Virus record (IMG/VR): IMGVR_UViG_2541047719_000002
Coordinates: 1-43,543 of that record
From: a virus
Lineage: Duplodnaviria > Heunggongvirae > Uroviricota > Caudoviricetes
Strand: one strand, 5' to 3'
DNA length: 43,543 nucleotides
The translations under genes were made by a program, and so were the position numbers. Positions 8,745 to 19,714 of this stretch are shown here, in pieces (position 1 is the stretch's first letter; each line of letters starts with the position of its first letter). The notes under the pieces are model-generated. The model was not told where the DNA came from and did not search any database. It was given only the letters and a program-made list of their open reading frames with translations.

Positions 8745-9257
8745 TTATTTGCTCCTGTAGAATTCGCCGTGATGCTTTCTGGCAAAGTCGCAGTAAGCTT
8801 TTTTGGCATCTTCTAATTCATTAAAGTACCCTAGATGTTTTTTCTTTCCGTTTAATTTACCATAGGCAGCCCACTTTCTACTTTCCTTCTTCCATGTGAC
8901 TCCTTTGCAACCTGATTTGTTGAGGGTGTTTATTTTACTATTCATTGAATTCTGTGAGTAAGTTGCAAGCCTCAGATTGCAAATTCTGTTATCTGTCTTA
9001 ATGCCATTTATATGGTCGATAATACCTTCAGGCTCAACACCGAAAGTGATAATCCATGCAAGTCTATGTGCAGCATAGTGTCTTCCGTTAATGAAAATCC
9101 TTAAGTAGCCGCTTGTTGTTATTGTTCCGGCAGTTCCACCTATCTTCCTTGCTCCATAAGATTTTAGCCATGTGAACTCACCAGAAATAGGGTTATATTT
9201 GACAACATTATTAATCTCACTTAGGGAAATTAATTCAAGAATCTTTATAAATGCCAT
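8745..9257 (-). CDS. HNH homing endonuclease with AP2-like DNA-binding domain (copy 1)
   Basis: HNH_3-type motif (HRLAW...IDHINGIKTDNRICNLR) plus C-terminal AP2-like segment (GVTW...KWAAYGK...LGYF); start set at ATG 9255-9257; AT-rich gene. Confidence 0.8.
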   Translation of the reverse strand: MAFIKILELISLSEINNVVKYNPISGEFTWLKSYGARKIGGTAGTITTSGYLRIFINGRHYAAHRLAWIITFGVEPEGIIDHINGIKTDNRICNLRLATYSQNSMNSKINTLNKSGCKGVTWKKESRKWAAYGKLNGKKKHLGYFNELEDAKKAYCDFARKHHGEFYRSK

Positions 9258-9341
9258 TTTATATCCTATCAACTGCGTTCATTAATCAGCGTTTACGCTC
9301 ATGAATAAACACCTCTCGTGAAGCGTTATTGGTATGCATAT

Positions 9342-9365: not shown

Positions 9366-9501
9366 AAAGAAGATTTCCAATAATCAGAACAAGTCGGCTC
9401 CTGTTTAGTTACGAGCGACATTGCTCCGTGTATTCACTCGTTGGAATGAATACACAGTGCAGTGTTTATTCTGTTGTTTATGCCAAAAATGAAGGCCACC
9501 A

Positions 9502-9702
9502 TCAGGCAGCCTTGTTATTCTGTTTACCAAGTTCTCTGGCAATCATTGCCGTCGTTCGTATTGCCCATTTATCGACATATTTCCCATCCTCCATTACAGG
9601 AAACATTTCTTCAGGCTTAACCATGCATTCCGATTGCAGCTTGCATCCATTGCATCGCTTGAATTGTCCACACCATTGATTTTTATCAATAGTCGTAGTC
9701 AT
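9502..9702 (-). CDS. Hypothetical small Cys-rich protein
   Basis: 66-aa ORF with CxxxxxC...CxxC pattern (CGQFKRCNGCKLQSEC). Confidence 0.4.
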   Translation of the reverse strand: MTTTIDKNQWCGQFKRCNGCKLQSECMVKPEEMFPVMEDGKYVDKWAIRTTAMIARELGKQNNKAA

Positions 9703-9829
9703 ACGGATAGTCCTGGTATTGTTCCATCACATCCTGAGGATGCTCTTCGAACTCTTCAAATTCTTCTTCCATATATCACCTCTGTGGCTTGCTGCCAAAA
9801 CAATGAACCATCCGGAAATTCCAGATAGT

Positions 9830-10054
9830 TCATAATTCACTCTTCAATACTTCCAGCTTACTAATAGCCGAAAGATATCCGCGCTGATAGGGCATCATCA
9901 TTCCTTCGAGCTTGCCACTTCTTAACTCATCCCTGAGCAATTGTATTGCTTTATCAATAACCTCTGACTTAGCGTCCTTTATGGCTTGCTTGCGGGGCTT
10001 TGCTTTCTGCTTTGGCAGATTTCTCAAGCATGATGGAATGTATGTCTGATTCAT
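9830..10054 (-). CDS. Hypothetical small basic protein (early-left; cIII/kil position)
   Basis: 74-aa ORF from ATG 10052-10054, starting just after the stop of the N-like remnant. Confidence 0.4.
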   Translation of the reverse strand: MNQTYIPSCLRNLPKQKAKPRKQAIKDAKSEVIDKAIQLLRDELRSGKLEGMMMPYQRGYLSAISKLEVLKSEL

Positions 10055-10057
10055 CAC

Positions 10058-10204
10058 TTACCTCGCTGTCAGTTGTTTTGATTTCCGGTAGCCTGCCGAG
10101 TAAATGGCTACGTTTGGCAGGCACACAGCACCACCTTCAACTTCCTTCTAACGCGTTCCTGCAAGCGAAATGGCTCTTGAAACACGTTTACTGGCTCCGT
10201 CCAT
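10058..10204 (-). pseudogene. C-terminal remnant of an N-type (P22 gene 24-like) antiterminator gene, with in-frame TAG
   Basis: Minus-strand translation ...DGASKRVSRAISLAGTR-TAG-KEVEGGAVCLPNVAIYSAGYRKSKQLTAR-TAA matches my recollection of the P22 gp24 C-terminus (KAISLAGTRQKEVEGGSVLLPGVALYAAGHRKSKQITAR); TAG at 10148-10150 sits where P22 has Gln; 5' end overlaps the 3' end of HNH copy 2. Confidence 0.45.
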
Positions 10205-10721
10205 GATTTTCATGAAAGCCATATAGTGCATTGGCTTCTTTCCTTGCTTGTTTGGCATCATCTAAAAGTTTGAATGAGCCTAGGTATTTTCGTTTTCCAT
10301 CCACAGTTATCGATGCAACATAAAACCCATGCTCTTTTCTTTCTTCAACACCTGTAACTCCAGTTGATGAAGATGATTTTAAAGGCATGTTTTTCATATT
10401 CTCTTTGAAAGAAACGCTTCTTAAATTGGAGATTCTGTTGTCATCCTTAACGCCGTTTATGTGATCAATCACATCAGGCCAGTAGCCATGCACGTAAAGC
10501 CATGCAAGTCTGTGAGACTTAAATTTTTTACCTCCAATATTTATTCTCAGATAACCCTTGTTGTCAGGTGAGCCAGCCTTTTTACCTGGATACTTCTTGT
10601 TCCACGTCAAGGCAGCTCTGTTATCCGCAAACAAATGCTTTGCTCTCGGCTTCCAATAAAAGTCACCACTCACAGGATTGTAATGAAGAATCTCCCTTAC
10701 AGACACTTGAGTAAGATCCAC
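10188..10721 (-). CDS. HNH homing endonuclease with AP2-like domain (copy 2)
   Basis: 177-aa ORF, GTG start with AGGAGG RBS; HNH_3 motif (HRLAWLYVHGYWPDVIDHINGVKDDNRISNLR) and AP2-like C-terminus (GVTGV...LGSF...ALYGFHENHGRSQ). Confidence 0.8.
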   Translation of the reverse strand: MDLTQVSVREILHYNPVSGDFYWKPRAKHLFADNRAALTWNKKYPGKKAGSPDNKGYLRINIGGKKFKSHRLAWLYVHGYWPDVIDHINGVKDDNRISNLRSVSFKENMKNMPLKSSSSTGVTGVEERKEHGFYVASITVDGKRKYLGSFKLLDDAKQARKEANALYGFHENHGRSQ

Positions 10722-10857
10722 TTAAACCTCCTAACAAAAACACTTCAATAACCCTCCGGTTATGGAAATGTTCTTTTGTAGTGAGCAGCATTGCCGTTCA
10801 TCCTGAACCCGCCGCGCTCCCGACGCATGGTTTAAAGACGCGCCGTTCGTCTATGGG

Positions 10858-10952
10858 CTTATGATGTACTTAAAGTTCATTAATGTAAAGTACCAATAGT
10901 ACATTTTATGGGTATAAAAAGCTCACTACATCATAAGTTAGTGAACTTTAAG
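10858..10952 (-). promoter_or_regulatory. Candidate PL promoter and OL operator(s)
   Basis: Minus strand TTTACA-17 bp-CATCAT with an operator-like TGAACTTTAAGTACA (12/15 match to the OR palindrome) inside the spacer; second TGAAC half-site near 10942; immediately left of cI 3' end. Confidence 0.35.
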
Positions 10953-10963
10953 GAAATTTATTT

Positions 10964-11671
10964 TTATCCGAATCGCTTGTAATCGATTGACTGCCTAATG
11001 AGGACTTTGGCTAGAATGTGAAGTTGCTCTTCTTCACCTTCTTCTATGTACCATCGATCATAAGCGGCATTGTCAGAGATGACGGCAAGCCTGTTCTTTT
11101 GCATTTGCAGGCGCTTAACGTGCATTGTTTTCCCGTATACAAACACATAAATGCCATCGCCATCAAAATAGGTTATGGATACATCAACAAAGATCTCATC
11201 TCCCGGATTGATGGTTCCCTCCATGCTGTCACCGCGAACCGTGATGACTTTTACGCTTTCCTGTGGCCTTCCATTAAATAAAATTCTTGCCTGCTCGGGC
11301 GTATATTCAATTGCTCTTATCTTTTCTATAAATTCATTGGAAACCATGGTTCCTGGCCCGGCGCTCGCCTGAACATCCAATACATCAACACGATAAGAAT
11401 CATTTGATCTTGATAGATGATTTACCGTGATACCGTCATAATCAGCATAGCCATGCAGATATGCAGCAGTAGTTCCCAGCACCGAAGCCAGAGATTCCAT
11501 CTTGTCTTTTCTTGGTATTGACTCCCCGTTGAACCATTTACTAATGGCTTTTGGTGTGACCTTAAGCCTGACAGCTAAATCAGCCTGCCTACCATGCAAA
11601 GGTAATCCCGCTTTATCACAGGCCAGCGCAAGCCTCTGCGAGAAAGTTTCACGCTCTTTCTGTTGAACCAT
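10964..11671 (-). CDS. cI: CI-like prophage repressor (HTH plus LexA-like S24 autopeptidase domain)
   Basis: N-terminal HTH region (TFSQRLALACDKAGLPLHGRQADLAVRLKVTPKAISKWFNG) and C-terminal S24 motifs (GDSMEGTINPGDEIFVD...VKRL); start set at ATG 11669-11671; upstream ATGs at 11716 and 11728 are alternatives. Confidence 0.8.
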   Translation of the reverse strand: MVQQKERETFSQRLALACDKAGLPLHGRQADLAVRLKVTPKAISKWFNGESIPRKDKMESLASVLGTTAAYLHGYADYDGITVNHLSRSNDSYRVDVLDVQASAGPGTMVSNEFIEKIRAIEYTPEQARILFNGRPQESVKVITVRGDSMEGTINPGDEIFVDVSITYFDGDGIYVFVYGKTMHVKRLQMQKNRLAVISDNAAYDRWYIEEGEEEQLHILAKVLIRQSIDYKRFG

Positions 11672-11740
11672 AAGTTCAACTATATTAGGTATTGACTGTA
11701 CTATCAGTTCCGTCATAATATGAACCATAAGTTCACCACA
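11661..11740. promoter_or_regulatory. Divergent PRM/PR region with two copies of a 17-bp palindromic operator
   Basis: TTGAACCATAAGTTCAA at 11663..11679 and TGAACCATAAGTTCA at 11721..11735; PR TTGACT (11692-11697), 16-bp spacer, CATAAT (11714-11719) reading toward cro; leftward TAATAT 10 nt before the cI ATG. Confidence 0.55.
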
Positions 11741-11750
11741 GGAGAGAAGC

Positions 11751-11981
11751 ATGAACGAAGTTACGTTTGCAGAAGTTATCAAATCCGTTCGAGTTTCTGT
11801 TGTGGCTGATGTTTGTGGACTTACGCCAAAAGCCATCTATAAGTGGCTTGAGCGTGGTTCTCTGCCGCGCACCGAGTTCACTGGTGAAACCGAATATGCG
11901 GATAAGATCGCCAAGGCATCAGGCGGCAAGTACTCAGCAGCACAGATTCGCCGTATCGGTAAACAGCAGTTTGTCATGTAA
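11751..11981 (+). CDS. cro: Cro-like transcriptional regulator
   Basis: 76-aa ORF divergent from cI, immediately downstream of PR/operator; HTH-like segment (CGLTPKAIYKWLERGSLP). Confidence 0.6.
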   Translation: MNEVTFAEVIKSVRVSVVADVCGLTPKAIYKWLERGSLPRTEFTGETEYADKIAKASGGKYSAAQIRRIGKQQFVM

Positions 11982-12102
11982 TAAAAATGTACTTTCAGTA
12001 CCGAACGGCCCGGTATACGGTCGGGTGCCCGGCGTGGTCAAGGATGACTGTCAATGGTGCACGATAAAAAACCAAATTATTTACCTATGGAGATAGTAAG
12101 AA

Positions 12103-12399
12103 ATGGCACAAGCAAGCTACAGCAAGCCAACACAGCGAGAAATTGATCGCGCTGAAACTGATTTACTCATCAACCTGTCAACGCTTACCCAGCGCGGTCT
12201 GGCAAAGATGATTGGCTGTCATGAATCGAAGATAAGCAGAACGGACTGGAGATTTATTGCTTCGGTCTTGTGTGCTTTCGGAATGGCATCAGACATCAGT
12301 CCGATTAGCAGGGCTTTTAAGTATGCGCTTGATGAAATCACAAAGAAAAAATCCCCGGCTGCCACCGAGGATTTTAAGCAAATTGATATGCAATTCTGA
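12103..12399 (+). CDS. cII: CII-like transcriptional activator
   Basis: 98-aa ORF; HTH segment and C-terminus (KKKSPAATEDFKQIDMQF) resemble lambda CII (…KKRPAATERSEQIQMEF) as recalled; GGAG RBS. Confidence 0.8.
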   Translation: MAQASYSKPTQREIDRAETDLLINLSTLTQRGLAKMIGCHESKISRTDWRFIASVLCAFGMASDISPISRAFKYALDEITKKKSPAATEDFKQIDMQF

Positions 12400-19558: not shown

Positions 19559-19633
19559 GGGTCAGTCGTATAAAGGTAATCACGGAAGGCTGTTAACCTT
19601 CTTATCGTGGTTCGAGTCCACGCTGTCCCGCCA
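19559..19633 (+). tRNA. tRNA-Asn-like (anticodon GUU), atypical, possibly degenerate
   Basis: Anticodon stem GAAGG/CCTTC with loop CTGTTAA; T-arm CGTGG-TTCGAGT-CCACG; discriminator G and encoded CCA; acceptor stem 6/7 with a U-U mismatch; D-arm pairs poorly. Confidence 0.45.
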
Positions 19634-19638
19634 AACAT

Positions 19639-19714
19639 GCTGGTTTAGCTCCAATGGTAGAGCAGTCGCCTTGTAAGCGAATGGGTAGCGGTTCAAGTCC
19701 GTTAACCAGCACCA
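19639..19714 (+). tRNA. tRNA-Thr (anticodon UGU)
   Basis: 76-nt cloverleaf folded by hand: perfect 7-bp acceptor stem GCTGGTT/AACCAGC, D-arm GCTC-CAATGGTA-GAGC, anticodon loop CTTGTAA, T-arm AGCGG-TTCAAGT-CCGTT, encoded CCA. Confidence 0.75.

What the first reader, a model, noticed from the sequence alone, without database searches (positions are those of the whole stretch)
11661..11740. Immunity-region operators: a 17-bp palindrome repeated twice, one copy spanning the likely cI start codon
TTGAACCATAAGTTCAA (11663..11679) and TGAACCATAAGTTCA (11721..11735) flank a good PR (TTGACT-16-CATAAT). The left copy contains the ATG I take as the cI start, implying a near-leaderless PRM transcript as in lambda. 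Only two strong sites roughly 57 bp apart were found rather than a tight tripartite OR.
Basis: seen in the sequence. Interest (0 to 1): 0.45.

Follow-up and report, generated by a model that had tools for sequence, protein, structure and literature searches.

The report
Phage HK022 right operator (OR)

Summary
TGAACCATAAGTTCA occurs exactly at 11664-11678 and 11721-11735, flanking TTGACT-16-CATAAT. Window 10779-12164 is 99% identical to the phage HK022 immunity region (X16093). So OR is tripartite: OR1 lies over the PR start, weak OR2 over the PR -35 and spacer, and OR3 is centred exactly on the A of the cI ATG (11671).

Three independent annotations use that ATG. So do 32 distinct relatives' OR sequences, where the ATG in the OR3 spacer is invariant while neighbouring spacer bases and the OR1 spacer vary. 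A Rahnella variant with changed half-sites (TTAAC) has an in-frame stop two codons upstream.

A conserved TAnnnT hexamer 7-8 nt upstream of the ATG and the absence of a Shine-Dalgarno sequence support a leaderless maintenance transcript. The 5' end was not mapped here.

Cooperative binding of HK022 repressor and OL-OR looping are published. Verdict: already known, low interest. One open detail is that the predicted PM -35 is the nearly invariant spacer of OR2, centred at -33 rather than lambda's -42.

The parts
11721..11735 (.). OR1, TGAACCATAAGTTCA. Strong repressor site covering the predicted PR start region.
   Evidence: Exact motif match. Annotated 'oR pot. repressor binding site' in X16093 (3057-3071, offset 8664) and 'oR1' in HK75. 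In 32 distinct relatives the half-sites are conserved while the spacer takes 12 forms.
11697..11711 (.). OR2, TGTACTATCAGTTCC. Weak site with one mismatch to TGWAC-N5-GTWCA. It overlaps the last base of the PR -35 hexamer and the PR spacer, and its own spacer is the predicted PM -35.
   Evidence: It lies 24 bp centre-to-centre from OR1 in 32 of 32 distinct relatives, and its spacer is only TGATA or TGAAA.
11664..11678 (.). OR3, TGAACCATAAGTTCA (17-bp symmetric form 11663-11679). The core is identical to OR1, and the dyad centre falls on the A of the cI ATG.
   Evidence: The same arrangement (half-site, 2 nt, ATG, half-site) is seen in 57 loci giving 32 distinct OR sequences.
10964..11671 (-). 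cI repressor gene (235 aa), an HTH_3 domain plus a Peptidase_S24 (LexA-like) domain. The start codon is at 11671-11669, inside OR3.
   Evidence: Pfam. The same start is used in X16093, AF069308 and a RefSeq PGAP annotation. Homologues align from residue 1.
11692..11719 (+). PR: -35 TTGACT (11692-11697), 16-bp spacer, -10 CATAAT (11714-11719).
   Evidence: Consensus scan, 10 of 12 matches. Annotated pR -35 and -10 in X16093. TTGAC is invariant in the alignment of seven OR regions.
11679..11707 (-). Predicted maintenance promoter PM: -35 CTGATA (11707-11702), 17-bp spacer, -10 TATAGT (11684-11679). This places the transcript start at or 1 nt before the A of the cI ATG.
   Evidence: Consensus scan, 9 of 12 matches. 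A TAnnnT hexamer is conserved at -13..-8 (+/-1) in all 32 distinct relatives. A 'PM-10' label accompanies this stretch in the supplement of PMC8053113. The 5' end was not mapped here.
11740..11981 (+). cro: ribosome-binding site AGGAG (11740-11744) and CDS 11751-11981 (76 aa).
   Evidence: X16093 annotation. ORF list. Cro residues 24-42 share 10 of 19 residues with the cI recognition-helix region.
11988..12002 (.). OFR, TGTACTTTCAGTACC. An extra repressor site just downstream of cro.
   Evidence: Motif match with 1 mismatch. 88% identical to OR2 over 16 nt. Annotated OFR in HK75. Described as a CI operator ~300 bp downstream of OR involved in immunity (PMC8053113).
10865..10903 (.). OL1 (10865-10879, TGTACTTAAAGTTCA) and OL2 (10889-10903, AGTACCAATAGTACA), 24 bp apart, over PL (-10 at 10861-10866, -35 at 10884-10889, minus strand).
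   Evidence: Conserved in relatives.
10911..10956 (.). OL3 region with two candidates: 10911-10925 (GGTATAAAAAGCTCA, the HK75 annotation) and 10942-10956 (TGAACTTTAAGGAAA, 53 bp from OL2).
   Evidence: The '53 bp between OL2 and OL3' statement is in PMC8053113. Which of the two is the footprinted site was not resolved here.

Best explanation
This is the right operator (OR) of an HK022-immunity prophage. The cI repressor (HTH plus LexA-like S24 domain) recognises 15-bp sites of consensus TGwAC-N5-GTwCA.

Layout:
- OR1 (11721-35) lies over the PR start.
- Weak OR2 (11697-711) lies over the PR -35 and spacer. OR1 and OR2 are 24 bp apart.
- OR3 (11664-78) has the same 15-bp core as OR1 but has no partner at 24 bp. 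It is centred on the A of the cI ATG.

Proposed mechanism:
- OR1 and OR2 are filled together by strongly cooperative binding, which shuts off cro and the lytic right operon.
- OR3 covers the start of the leaderless maintenance transcript from PM (-10 TATAGT at 11684-79). Its occupancy at higher repressor levels, possibly helped by looping to OL, turns cI synthesis down (negative autoregulation).
- Cro shares the TPKAIxKW recognition-helix motif with cI, so it most likely uses the same sites.

Shown here: the sequences, positions, identity to HK022 and conservation pattern.
Taken from the literature: binding, cooperativity of about 2000-fold, and OL-OR looping.
Inferred: the leaderless start, the order in which the sites fill, Cro's targets, and any effect of OR2-bound repressor on PM.
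For: - 99.1-99.3% identity to the HK022 immunity region. All five operators annotated in X16093 are base-for-base identical.
- GenBank annotations of HK022 and HK75 place oR1, oR2, oR3, pR, oL sites and OFR at the mapped positions.
- The motif is enriched and clustered in the immunity region.
- cI has HTH_3 and Peptidase_S24 domains, and cII matches Phage_CII.
- Across 57 loci (32 distinct OR sequences) the OR1-OR2 spacing is 24 bp in all 32, and OR2-OR3 is 32-34 bp. Half-sites are conserved, the OR1 spacer is free (12 variants), the OR3 spacer is NNATG with ATG invariant, and a TAnnnT hexamer sits at -13..-8.
- Against relatives L006-L008, cI third-codon positions are only 43-50% identical, while the 79-nt cI-cro spacer is 82-87% identical.
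- The Rahnella loci L011 and L061 keep the same architecture with TTAAC half-sites and have a TAA two codons upstream of the ATG.
- Literature: cooperative binding, the extra downstream operator (OFR) and demonstrated OL-OR looping (PMC8053113); cooperativity of about 2000-fold, or -4.7 kcal/mol (PMC7498355).
- cI and Cro share their recognition-helix motif.
Against: - No binding or transcript-mapping data could be generated here. The primary papers (Oberto 1989; Carlson & Little 1993) are not in the held library and were read only through citing papers and GenBank annotation.
- OR3 has the same core as OR1. 'OR3 fills later' therefore rests entirely on cooperativity at OR1-OR2 and on the differing flanking bases. 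This is an inference.
- The predicted PM -35 lies inside OR2, centred at -33. Repressor bound at OR2 might therefore hinder PM rather than leave it free, and how cI is maintained is not settled by sequence.
- The window is not HK022 itself: nun is replaced, and the rest of the window is P22-like.
Confidence: 0.93

Rival explanations
1. OR here is bipartite: only the two identical strong sites bind repressor, 57 bp apart, and the sequence between them is promoter only.
For: Only two exact copies exist. The middle site deviates from the motif at one half-site base and has a different spacer.
Against: - 11697-11711 matches TGWAC-N5-GTWCA with a single mismatch.
- It is annotated as an oR site in two GenBank records.
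- It keeps both half-sites and an invariant 24-bp distance to OR1 in 32 of 32 distinct relatives, including the TTAAC-specificity variant, where it changes in step to TTAACTGAAAGTTAT.
- The literature describes cooperative binding to adjacent operators within OR.
Confidence: 0.03
2. cI starts upstream, at the in-frame ATG at 11716 or 11729, and is translated from a conventional leader. The ATG inside OR3 would then be an internal methionine.
For: The frame upstream of 11671 stays open for 55 codons and contains ATGs at codon offsets 15, 19, 27 and 55. The automatic annotation of Salmonella phage S9-5 uses a longer ORF.
Against: - The offset-19 ATG (11729) is present in only 4 of the 32 distinct relatives' OR sequences, because the OR1 spacer varies.
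- The offset-15 ATG is the complement of the PR -10 hexamer CATAAT.
- Residues between the candidate starts are not conserved as protein: I-P-N becomes S-T-D in S9-5.
- The Pantoea locus L009 has an in-frame stop 30 codons upstream, and the Rahnella locus has one 2 codons upstream.
- Homologues align from M1-V2, which are invariant.
- X16093, AF069308 and PGAP all use 11671.
- The published expression construct starts at ATGGTTCAACAG.
Confidence: 0.03
3. Mechanistic variant: as in lambda, repressor bound at OR2 activates PM by contacting sigma region 4 (positive autoregulation), rather than being neutral or inhibitory.
For: - The overall layout is lambda-like.
- The predicted PM has a poor -35 (CTGATA, 4 of 6), typical of an activator-dependent promoter.
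- The OR2 spacer cTGAwA is nearly invariant (2 variants against 12 for OR1), which suggests that RNA polymerase reads it.
- The repressor half-sites (-40..-36 and -30..-26) flank the -35 core rather than overlapping it.
Against: OR2 is centred at -33 from the predicted start, not at -42 as in lambda. The promoter-proximal repressor subunit would therefore sit in the -35/-10 spacer. No experimental statement on this point was found in the accessible literature. PMC8053113 notes only that the operator arrangement differs from lambda's and may control the immunity promoter differently.
Confidence: 0.3
4. The repeat is a chance or non-regulatory duplication.
For: None beyond the short length of the repeat.
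Against: Expected recurrence of the 15-mer is 8e-5. The motif clusters at OL, OR and OFR. It is conserved across relatives whose cI third-codon positions are close to saturation.
Confidence: 0.005

Closest known systems
Phage HK022 OR (oR1, oR2, oR3; GenBank X16093 and AF069308; Oberto et al. 1989; Carlson & Little 1993)
   Same: 99% identical DNA over window 10779-12164. All annotated OR and OL operators, the PR hexamers, the cI start and cro are identical in position and sequence. OFR, putL and putR are also present.
   Different: - The window is not phage HK022. nun is replaced by an HNH endonuclease gene, and the rest of the window is a P22-like mosaic.
- There are 13 base differences in the immunity region. 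None lies in the OL or OR operators and one lies in the OFR spacer.
- cI differs at 4 residues, all outside the HTH.
Phage lambda OR (OR1-OR2-OR3, PR and PRM, leaderless cI mRNA)
   Same: - Divergent cI and cro genes.
- Three partly symmetric sites.
- The OR1-OR2 pair is 24 bp apart and binds cooperatively over PR.
- OR3 lies over the maintenance promoter.
- The cI message is predicted to start at its AUG.
- There is a second operator set at PL, and OL-OR looping occurs (PMC8053113).
   Different: - The recognition sequence is unrelated: TGwAC-N5-GTwCA, 15 bp, against lambda's 17-bp TATCACCGC-type sites.
- OR3 has the same core as OR1 instead of being intrinsically weak.
- OR3 is centred at +1 of PM and contains the start codon. 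In lambda it is centred at about -19 (own knowledge of the lambda sequence).
- OR2 is centred at -33, not -42.
- OR2-OR3 spacing is 33 bp, not 23.
- Cooperativity is reported as about 2000-fold, against 60-130 for lambda (PMC7498355).
- There is an extra operator, OFR.
- There is no significant sequence match of cI to any solved structure.
HK022-immunity modules in other phages (HK75, the O276 hybrid, Salmonella P22-like phage S9-5, prophages of Kluyvera, Pantoea and Rahnella)
   Same: The same tripartite architecture and spacings, and the same placement of the start codon within OR3.
   Different: Relatives differ in spacer bases and, in Rahnella, in half-site specificity (TTAAC). In relatives that have the homologous C-terminal domain but a different N-terminal domain (for example L062 and L082), the region upstream of cI is unrelated to this OR; several show a GGAG or AGGG just before the ATG.

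Membership tests
Lambdoid cI/Cro immunity switch (tripartite OR) | Divergently transcribed repressor and cro genes separated by a short regulatory spacer. | tested here: met
   cI is at 10964-11671 (-) and cro at 11751-11981 (+), with a 79-nt spacer.
Lambdoid cI/Cro immunity switch (tripartite OR) | The repressor has an N-terminal HTH domain and a C-terminal LexA-like S24 self-cleavage and oligomerisation domain. | tested here: met
   Pfam HTH_3 (residues 28-72, E = 2e-9) and Peptidase_S24 (residues 101-223, E = 2e-19).
Lambdoid cI/Cro immunity switch (tripartite OR) | Three related, partly symmetric operator sites in the spacer. Two overlap PR and one overlaps the maintenance promoter. | tested here: met
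   OR1, OR2 and OR3 are at 11721-35, 11697-711 and 11664-78. They are conserved in 32 distinct relatives.
Lambdoid cI/Cro immunity switch (tripartite OR) | A second operator set with the same motif at PL. | tested here: met
   OL1 at 10865-79 and OL2 at 10889-903 lie over a TTTACA-17-CATCAT promoter on the minus strand.
Lambdoid cI/Cro immunity switch (tripartite OR) | The repressor physically binds these sites and represses PR and PL. | not testable with these tools
   Known only from the literature for HK022 (Carlson & Little 1993, as summarised in PMC8053113 and PMC7498355).
HK022 immunity type (imm HK022) | Operator sequences and repressor identical or nearly identical to those of HK022. 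| tested here: met
   All five annotated operators are identical. cI DNA has 4 differences in 708 nt.
HK022 immunity type (imm HK022) | The extra operator OFR downstream of cro, and the putL and putR antitermination RNA sites. | tested here: met
   OFR is at 11988-12002, putL at 10783-10845 and putR at 12002-12063, mapped by alignment to the HK75 annotation.
Phage HK022 itself | The nun gene to the left of PL, and an HK022 (HK97-like siphovirus) backbone. | tested here: not met
   The nun region of X16093 (1603-1941) has no counterpart in the window; an HNH_3 ORF lies at 10188-10721 instead. The best whole-window matches are P22-like phages such as Kapi1 and CUS-3, and a sar RNA is present.
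Leaderless repressor mRNA (as for lambda cI from PRM) | A -10 hexamer about 7 nt upstream of the A of the AUG, and no Shine-Dalgarno sequence. | tested here: met
   TATAGT at 11684-11679 is followed by TGAACTT and then ATG, and nothing resembling GGAG lies upstream. The hexamer position is conserved in all 32 distinct relatives.
Leaderless repressor mRNA (as for lambda cI from PRM) | A mapped 5' end at the start codon. | not testable with these tools
   No transcript data were available. Only a 'PM-10' label on this stretch in the supplement of PMC8053113.

The most novel reading that the evidence does not exclude
In the HK022-type switch, the -35 element of the maintenance promoter is the nearly invariant 5-bp spacer of OR2 (cTGAwA, centred at -33). 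Repressor at OR2 and sigma region 4 would then occupy the same 15 bp, perhaps from opposite faces of the helix. This geometry differs from lambda's -42 activation site. It would mean either a new mode of co-occupancy or activation, or a switch with no positive autoregulation in which all asymmetry between PR and PM comes from cooperativity. Embedding the start codon at the OR3 dyad would also tie codons 2-3 of cI (GTT CAA in HK022-type loci, GTT AAA in Rahnella) to operator specificity. I could not establish whether Carlson & Little already settled the PM question.
Probability: 0.2. Interest if true: 0.4.

Novelty: already known. Interest (0 to 1): 0.1.

Why it matters
It matters little as a discovery. 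The sites are the operators of a phage whose immunity region was sequenced in 1989 and footprinted in 1993, and they are annotated in GenBank.

The useful outcomes are practical:
- The window can be labelled as an HK022-immunity, P22-like mosaic prophage lacking nun.
- The cI start and the three-site OR are fixed with comparative evidence.
- The HK022-type layout turns out to be conserved across enterobacterial relatives, even where the half-site specificity has changed. That layout is OR3 centred on the start codon, OR1-OR2 at 24 bp and OR2-OR3 at about 33 bp.
- HK022 immunity is rare: 10 of 5426 complete E. coli genomes carry it.

Tried and rejected
- Reading the primary papers failed. PMC206910 (Carlson & Little, J Bacteriol 1993) is not held, and the two JMB papers are not in the library. 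I relied on citing papers and GenBank annotation.
- Literature searches for HK022 PM autoregulation or a leaderless cI found nothing specific.
- Rfam gave no family for the put RNAs or anything else in the immunity region.
- Sequence search of the PDB gave no hit for cI and only a marginal one for Cro (N15 Cro, 2HIN, E = 0.045).
- I considered an ACTG-N6-CAGT palindrome within 11695-11708 as a separate operator, and rejected it in favour of the register 11697-11711, which matches the family motif.
- I considered TAATAT (11687-11682) as the PM -10. It is not conserved in relatives, whereas TATAGT-type hexamers at 11684-11679 are.
- The extra one-mismatch site inside cI (11370-84) has a changed half-site in S9-5 (read), and the count outside the immunity region is compatible with chance.
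- Structure prediction and the large protein searches were not used, because the identification was already unambiguous.

Full report
**Observation.** The sequence reads ...ctgTTGAACCATAAGTTCAActatattaggtaTTGACTgtactatcagttccgtCATAATaTGAACCATAAGTTCAccacAGGAGagaagcATG.
- The 17-mer TTGAACCATAAGTTCAA is at 11663-11679 and the 15-mer TGAACCATAAGTTCA at 11721-11735. They form an exact 15-nt direct repeat with a spacing of 57 bp.
- Each copy is an inverted repeat of 5-6 bp arms around an asymmetric 5-bp spacer (CATAA), not a full palindrome.
- A given 15-mer is expected to recur 8e-5 times in 43.5 kb.
- The promoter TTGACT-16-CATAAT is at 11692-11719, with 10 of 12 consensus matches.

**Identity.**
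- Window 10900-12100 is 99.3% identical to the phage HK022 immunity region (X16093, AF069308). It is 99.2% identical to the HK022/lambda hybrid O276 and 94.8% to HK75. The collinear match to X16093 runs over window 10779-12164 with 13 substitutions.
- With the offset of 8664, the X16093 annotation places 'oR potential repressor binding sites' at 11664-11678, 11697-11711 and 11721-11735. It places pR -35 at 11692-11697 and pR -10 at 11714-11719, the cro ribosome-binding site at 11740-11744 and cro at 11751-11981. It places cI at 10964-11671, oL sites at 10865-10879 and 10889-10903, and pL.
- The HK75 record names the OR sites oR3, oR2 and oR1. It adds oL3, OFR, putL, putR and pE.
- All five X16093 operators are base-for-base identical in the window. 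None of the 13 differences touches OL or OR, and one lies in the OFR spacer.

**The missed third site.**
TGWAC-N5-GTWCA occurs 3 times with no mismatch (OL1, OR3, OR1), against 0.15 expected.
- With at most 1 mismatch it occurs 12 times, against 3.8 +/- 2.0 expected. Seven of these lie within 10865-12002: OL1, OL2, a site inside cI, OR3, OR2, OR1 and OFR.
- OR2 (TGTACTATCAGTTCC, 11697-11711) lies 24 bp from OR1 and 33 bp from OR3, centre to centre.

**Comparative test.**
- I collected relatives of cI from genome contigs and viral contigs, plus Salmonella phage S9-5.
- In 57 loci, giving 32 distinct OR sequences with cI 55-100% identical, the OR1-OR2 distance is 24 bp in all 32. OR2-OR3 is 33 bp in 29, 34 bp in 1 and 32 bp in 2.
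- The half-sites are conserved. The OR1 spacer takes 12 different forms. The OR2 spacer is only TGATA or TGAAA. The OR3 spacer is NNATG, with seven forms of NN and an invariant ATG.
- Against relatives L006-L008, cI third-codon positions are only 43-50% identical, while the 79-nt cI-cro spacer is 82-87% identical.
- Two Rahnella-type loci (L011, L061) keep the whole layout with a changed half-site: TTAACTACGAGTTAA at -56, TTAACTGAAAGTTAT at -32 and TTAACGAATGGTTAA at 0. Their cI has a different recognition-helix region.
- Relatives with a homologous C-terminal domain but a different N-terminal domain have an upstream region unrelated to this OR. Several show a GGAG or AGGG just before the ATG.

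**The cI start.**
- X16093, AF069308 and a RefSeq PGAP annotation of an E. coli prophage all start cI at the ATG equivalent to 11671. A published expression construct also starts at ATGGTTCAACAG.
- Homologues align from M1-V2, which are invariant.
- The in-frame ATG at 11729 sits in the OR1 spacer and is present in only 4 of the 32 distinct OR sequences.
- The in-frame ATG at 11716 is the complement of the PR -10 hexamer.
- The Rahnella locus has a TAA two codons upstream of the start, and the Pantoea locus has a stop 30 codons upstream.

**Maintenance promoter.**
- On the minus strand the scan finds CTGATA-17-TATAGT (11707-11679, 9 of 12 matches). TATAGT is followed by TGAACTT and then ATG.
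- This puts the predicted start at 11672 or 11671, so the cI message would be leaderless or have a 1-nt leader. No Shine-Dalgarno sequence precedes the ATG.
- A TAnnnT hexamer occupies -13..-8 (+/-1) in every relative: TATAGT, TACAGT, TATGCT, TATATT, TATGAT, TATACT and GATACT. The neighbouring TAATAT is not conserved.
- The supplement of PMC8053113 labels this stretch 'PM-10'. No 5'-end mapping was available to me, so the leaderless start remains an inference, though a well-supported one.
- The predicted -35 (CTGATA) is the OR2 spacer plus one base. OR2 is thus centred at -33, compared with -42 in lambda (own knowledge of the lambda sequence). The near-invariance of that spacer suggests that something other than repressor, plausibly RNA polymerase, reads it.
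- Whether repressor bound at OR2 activates PM, is neutral, or hinders it cannot be decided from sequence.

**How it most likely works.**
- From the literature: HK022 CI binds cooperatively to adjacent operators in OR and OL. It induces loop-like DNase sensitivities in the 53 bp between OL2 and OL3. It has an extra operator about 300 bp downstream of OR that is involved in immunity. It loops OL to OR in vivo (PMC8053113). Its pairwise cooperativity is about 2000-fold, or -4.7 kcal/mol (PMC7498355).
- Combining this with the anatomy: strong OR1 recruits repressor to weak OR2, 24 bp away, and this closes PR.
- OR3 has the same core as OR1 but no partner at 24 bp. It should fill at higher repressor levels and block PM at its start site, giving negative autoregulation. 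Looping to OL may assist this. The order of filling is inferred.
- cI residues 38-56 and Cro residues 24-42 share 10 of 19 residues (TPKAIxKW...PR) over the predicted recognition helix. Cro therefore probably reads the same half-sites, which is also an inference.

**Comparison with known systems and novelty.**
- This is the HK022 OR itself, carried on a different phage backbone. The window lacks nun; an HNH_3 endonuclease ORF lies at 10188-10721 instead.
- Overall the window matches P22-like phages (Kapi1, CUS-3) best. It carries a sar RNA and two tRNA genes.
- The same module occurs in 10 of 5426 complete E. coli genomes.
- Relative to lambda the logic is the same, but the motif, the spacing, the OR3-OR1 core identity, the positions relative to PM and the extra OFR site all differ.
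- The finding is already known, and interest is low.

**Not done or unresolved.**
- The primary HK022 papers could not be read.
- Which of the two OL3 candidates (10911-25 or 10942-56) is the footprinted site remains unresolved. Each has one well-conserved half-site.
- The effect of OR2 occupancy on PM is open.

Noticed in passing
window 9480-10778 (ORF 10188-10721, minus strand) and 8745-9272 (minus strand): The nun gene of HK022 is absent. Its place downstream of PL and putL is taken by an HNH_3 endonuclease ORF (177 aa). A second HNH_3 + AP2 ORF (175 aa) lies further left. The same layout, with an adjacent truncated 'regulator' pseudogene, is annotated in the prophage of E. coli S1-CAM-01-C.
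   Followed up: partly
window 10783-10845 (minus strand) and 12002-12063 (plus strand): putL and putR, the RNA elements of HK022-type protein-independent antitermination, are retained. They were mapped from the HK75 annotation. No Rfam family matched them at gathering score.
   Followed up: partly
window 11988-12002: OFR (TGTACTTTCAGTACC), just after the cro stop codon, is 88% identical to OR2 over 16 nt and abuts putR. It differs from the HK022 sequence by one spacer base, at 11996.
   Followed up: partly
window 10911-10956: There are two candidate OL3 sites, each with only one good half-site: GTTCA at 10921-25 and TGAAC at 10942-46, facing away from each other 16 bp apart. Both half-sites are conserved in relatives. 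The HK75 annotation picks the first. The '53 bp between OL2 and OL3' in PMC8053113 fits the second.
   Followed up: partly
window 11534-11557 and 11823-11846: A 24-nt inverted repeat (79% complementary) is the DNA trace of a shared peptide motif, TPKAI(S/Y)KW...(I/L)PR, in the recognition-helix regions of cI and Cro, which are encoded on opposite strands.
   Followed up: yes
window 11672-11836 (minus-strand frame of cI): The cI reading frame stays open for 55 codons upstream of the start, running antisense through OR and the beginning of cro. This holds in nearly all HK022-like relatives. It is 30 codons in the Pantoea locus and 1 in the Rahnella locus. It is probably a by-product of conserved regulatory and cro sequence, but transcripts from PE would carry it.
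   Followed up: partly
window 11370-11384: A one-mismatch operator-like site (TGAACATCCAATACA) lies inside the cI coding sequence. One half-site is changed in S9-5, so it is probably chance.
   Followed up: partly
window 12112-12125 (minus strand): The cII-binding boxes at PE form a perfect TTGC-N6-TTGC in the window. The X16093 sequence of HK022 has TTGT in one box. Three of the 13 differences from HK022 cluster here.
   Followed up: no
window 38357-38423 (minus strand) and 19559-19711 (plus strand): A sar antisense RNA (from the P22 immI region) and two tRNA genes are present. Together with the best matches to Kapi1, CUS-3 and similar phages, they show that the window is a P22-like mosaic carrying HK022 immunity. 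It may therefore also have an antirepressor (immI) circuit.
   Followed up: no
L011 1438-1508 and 3632-3712; L061: Rahnella-type relatives keep the OR geometry (site centres at -56, -32 and 0) with TTAAC half-sites. They have a cluster of four related sites about 2.1 kb downstream of the cI start, beyond two extra genes. This looks like a probable OL placed as in lambda, beyond rexAB-like cargo.
   Followed up: partly
L007 (NZ_JBEOWA010000103.1, 1026 bp): A contig labelled Streptomyces sp. carries an enterobacterial HK022-type cI and OR (79% amino-acid identity). It is most likely a contaminant in that assembly.
   Followed up: no
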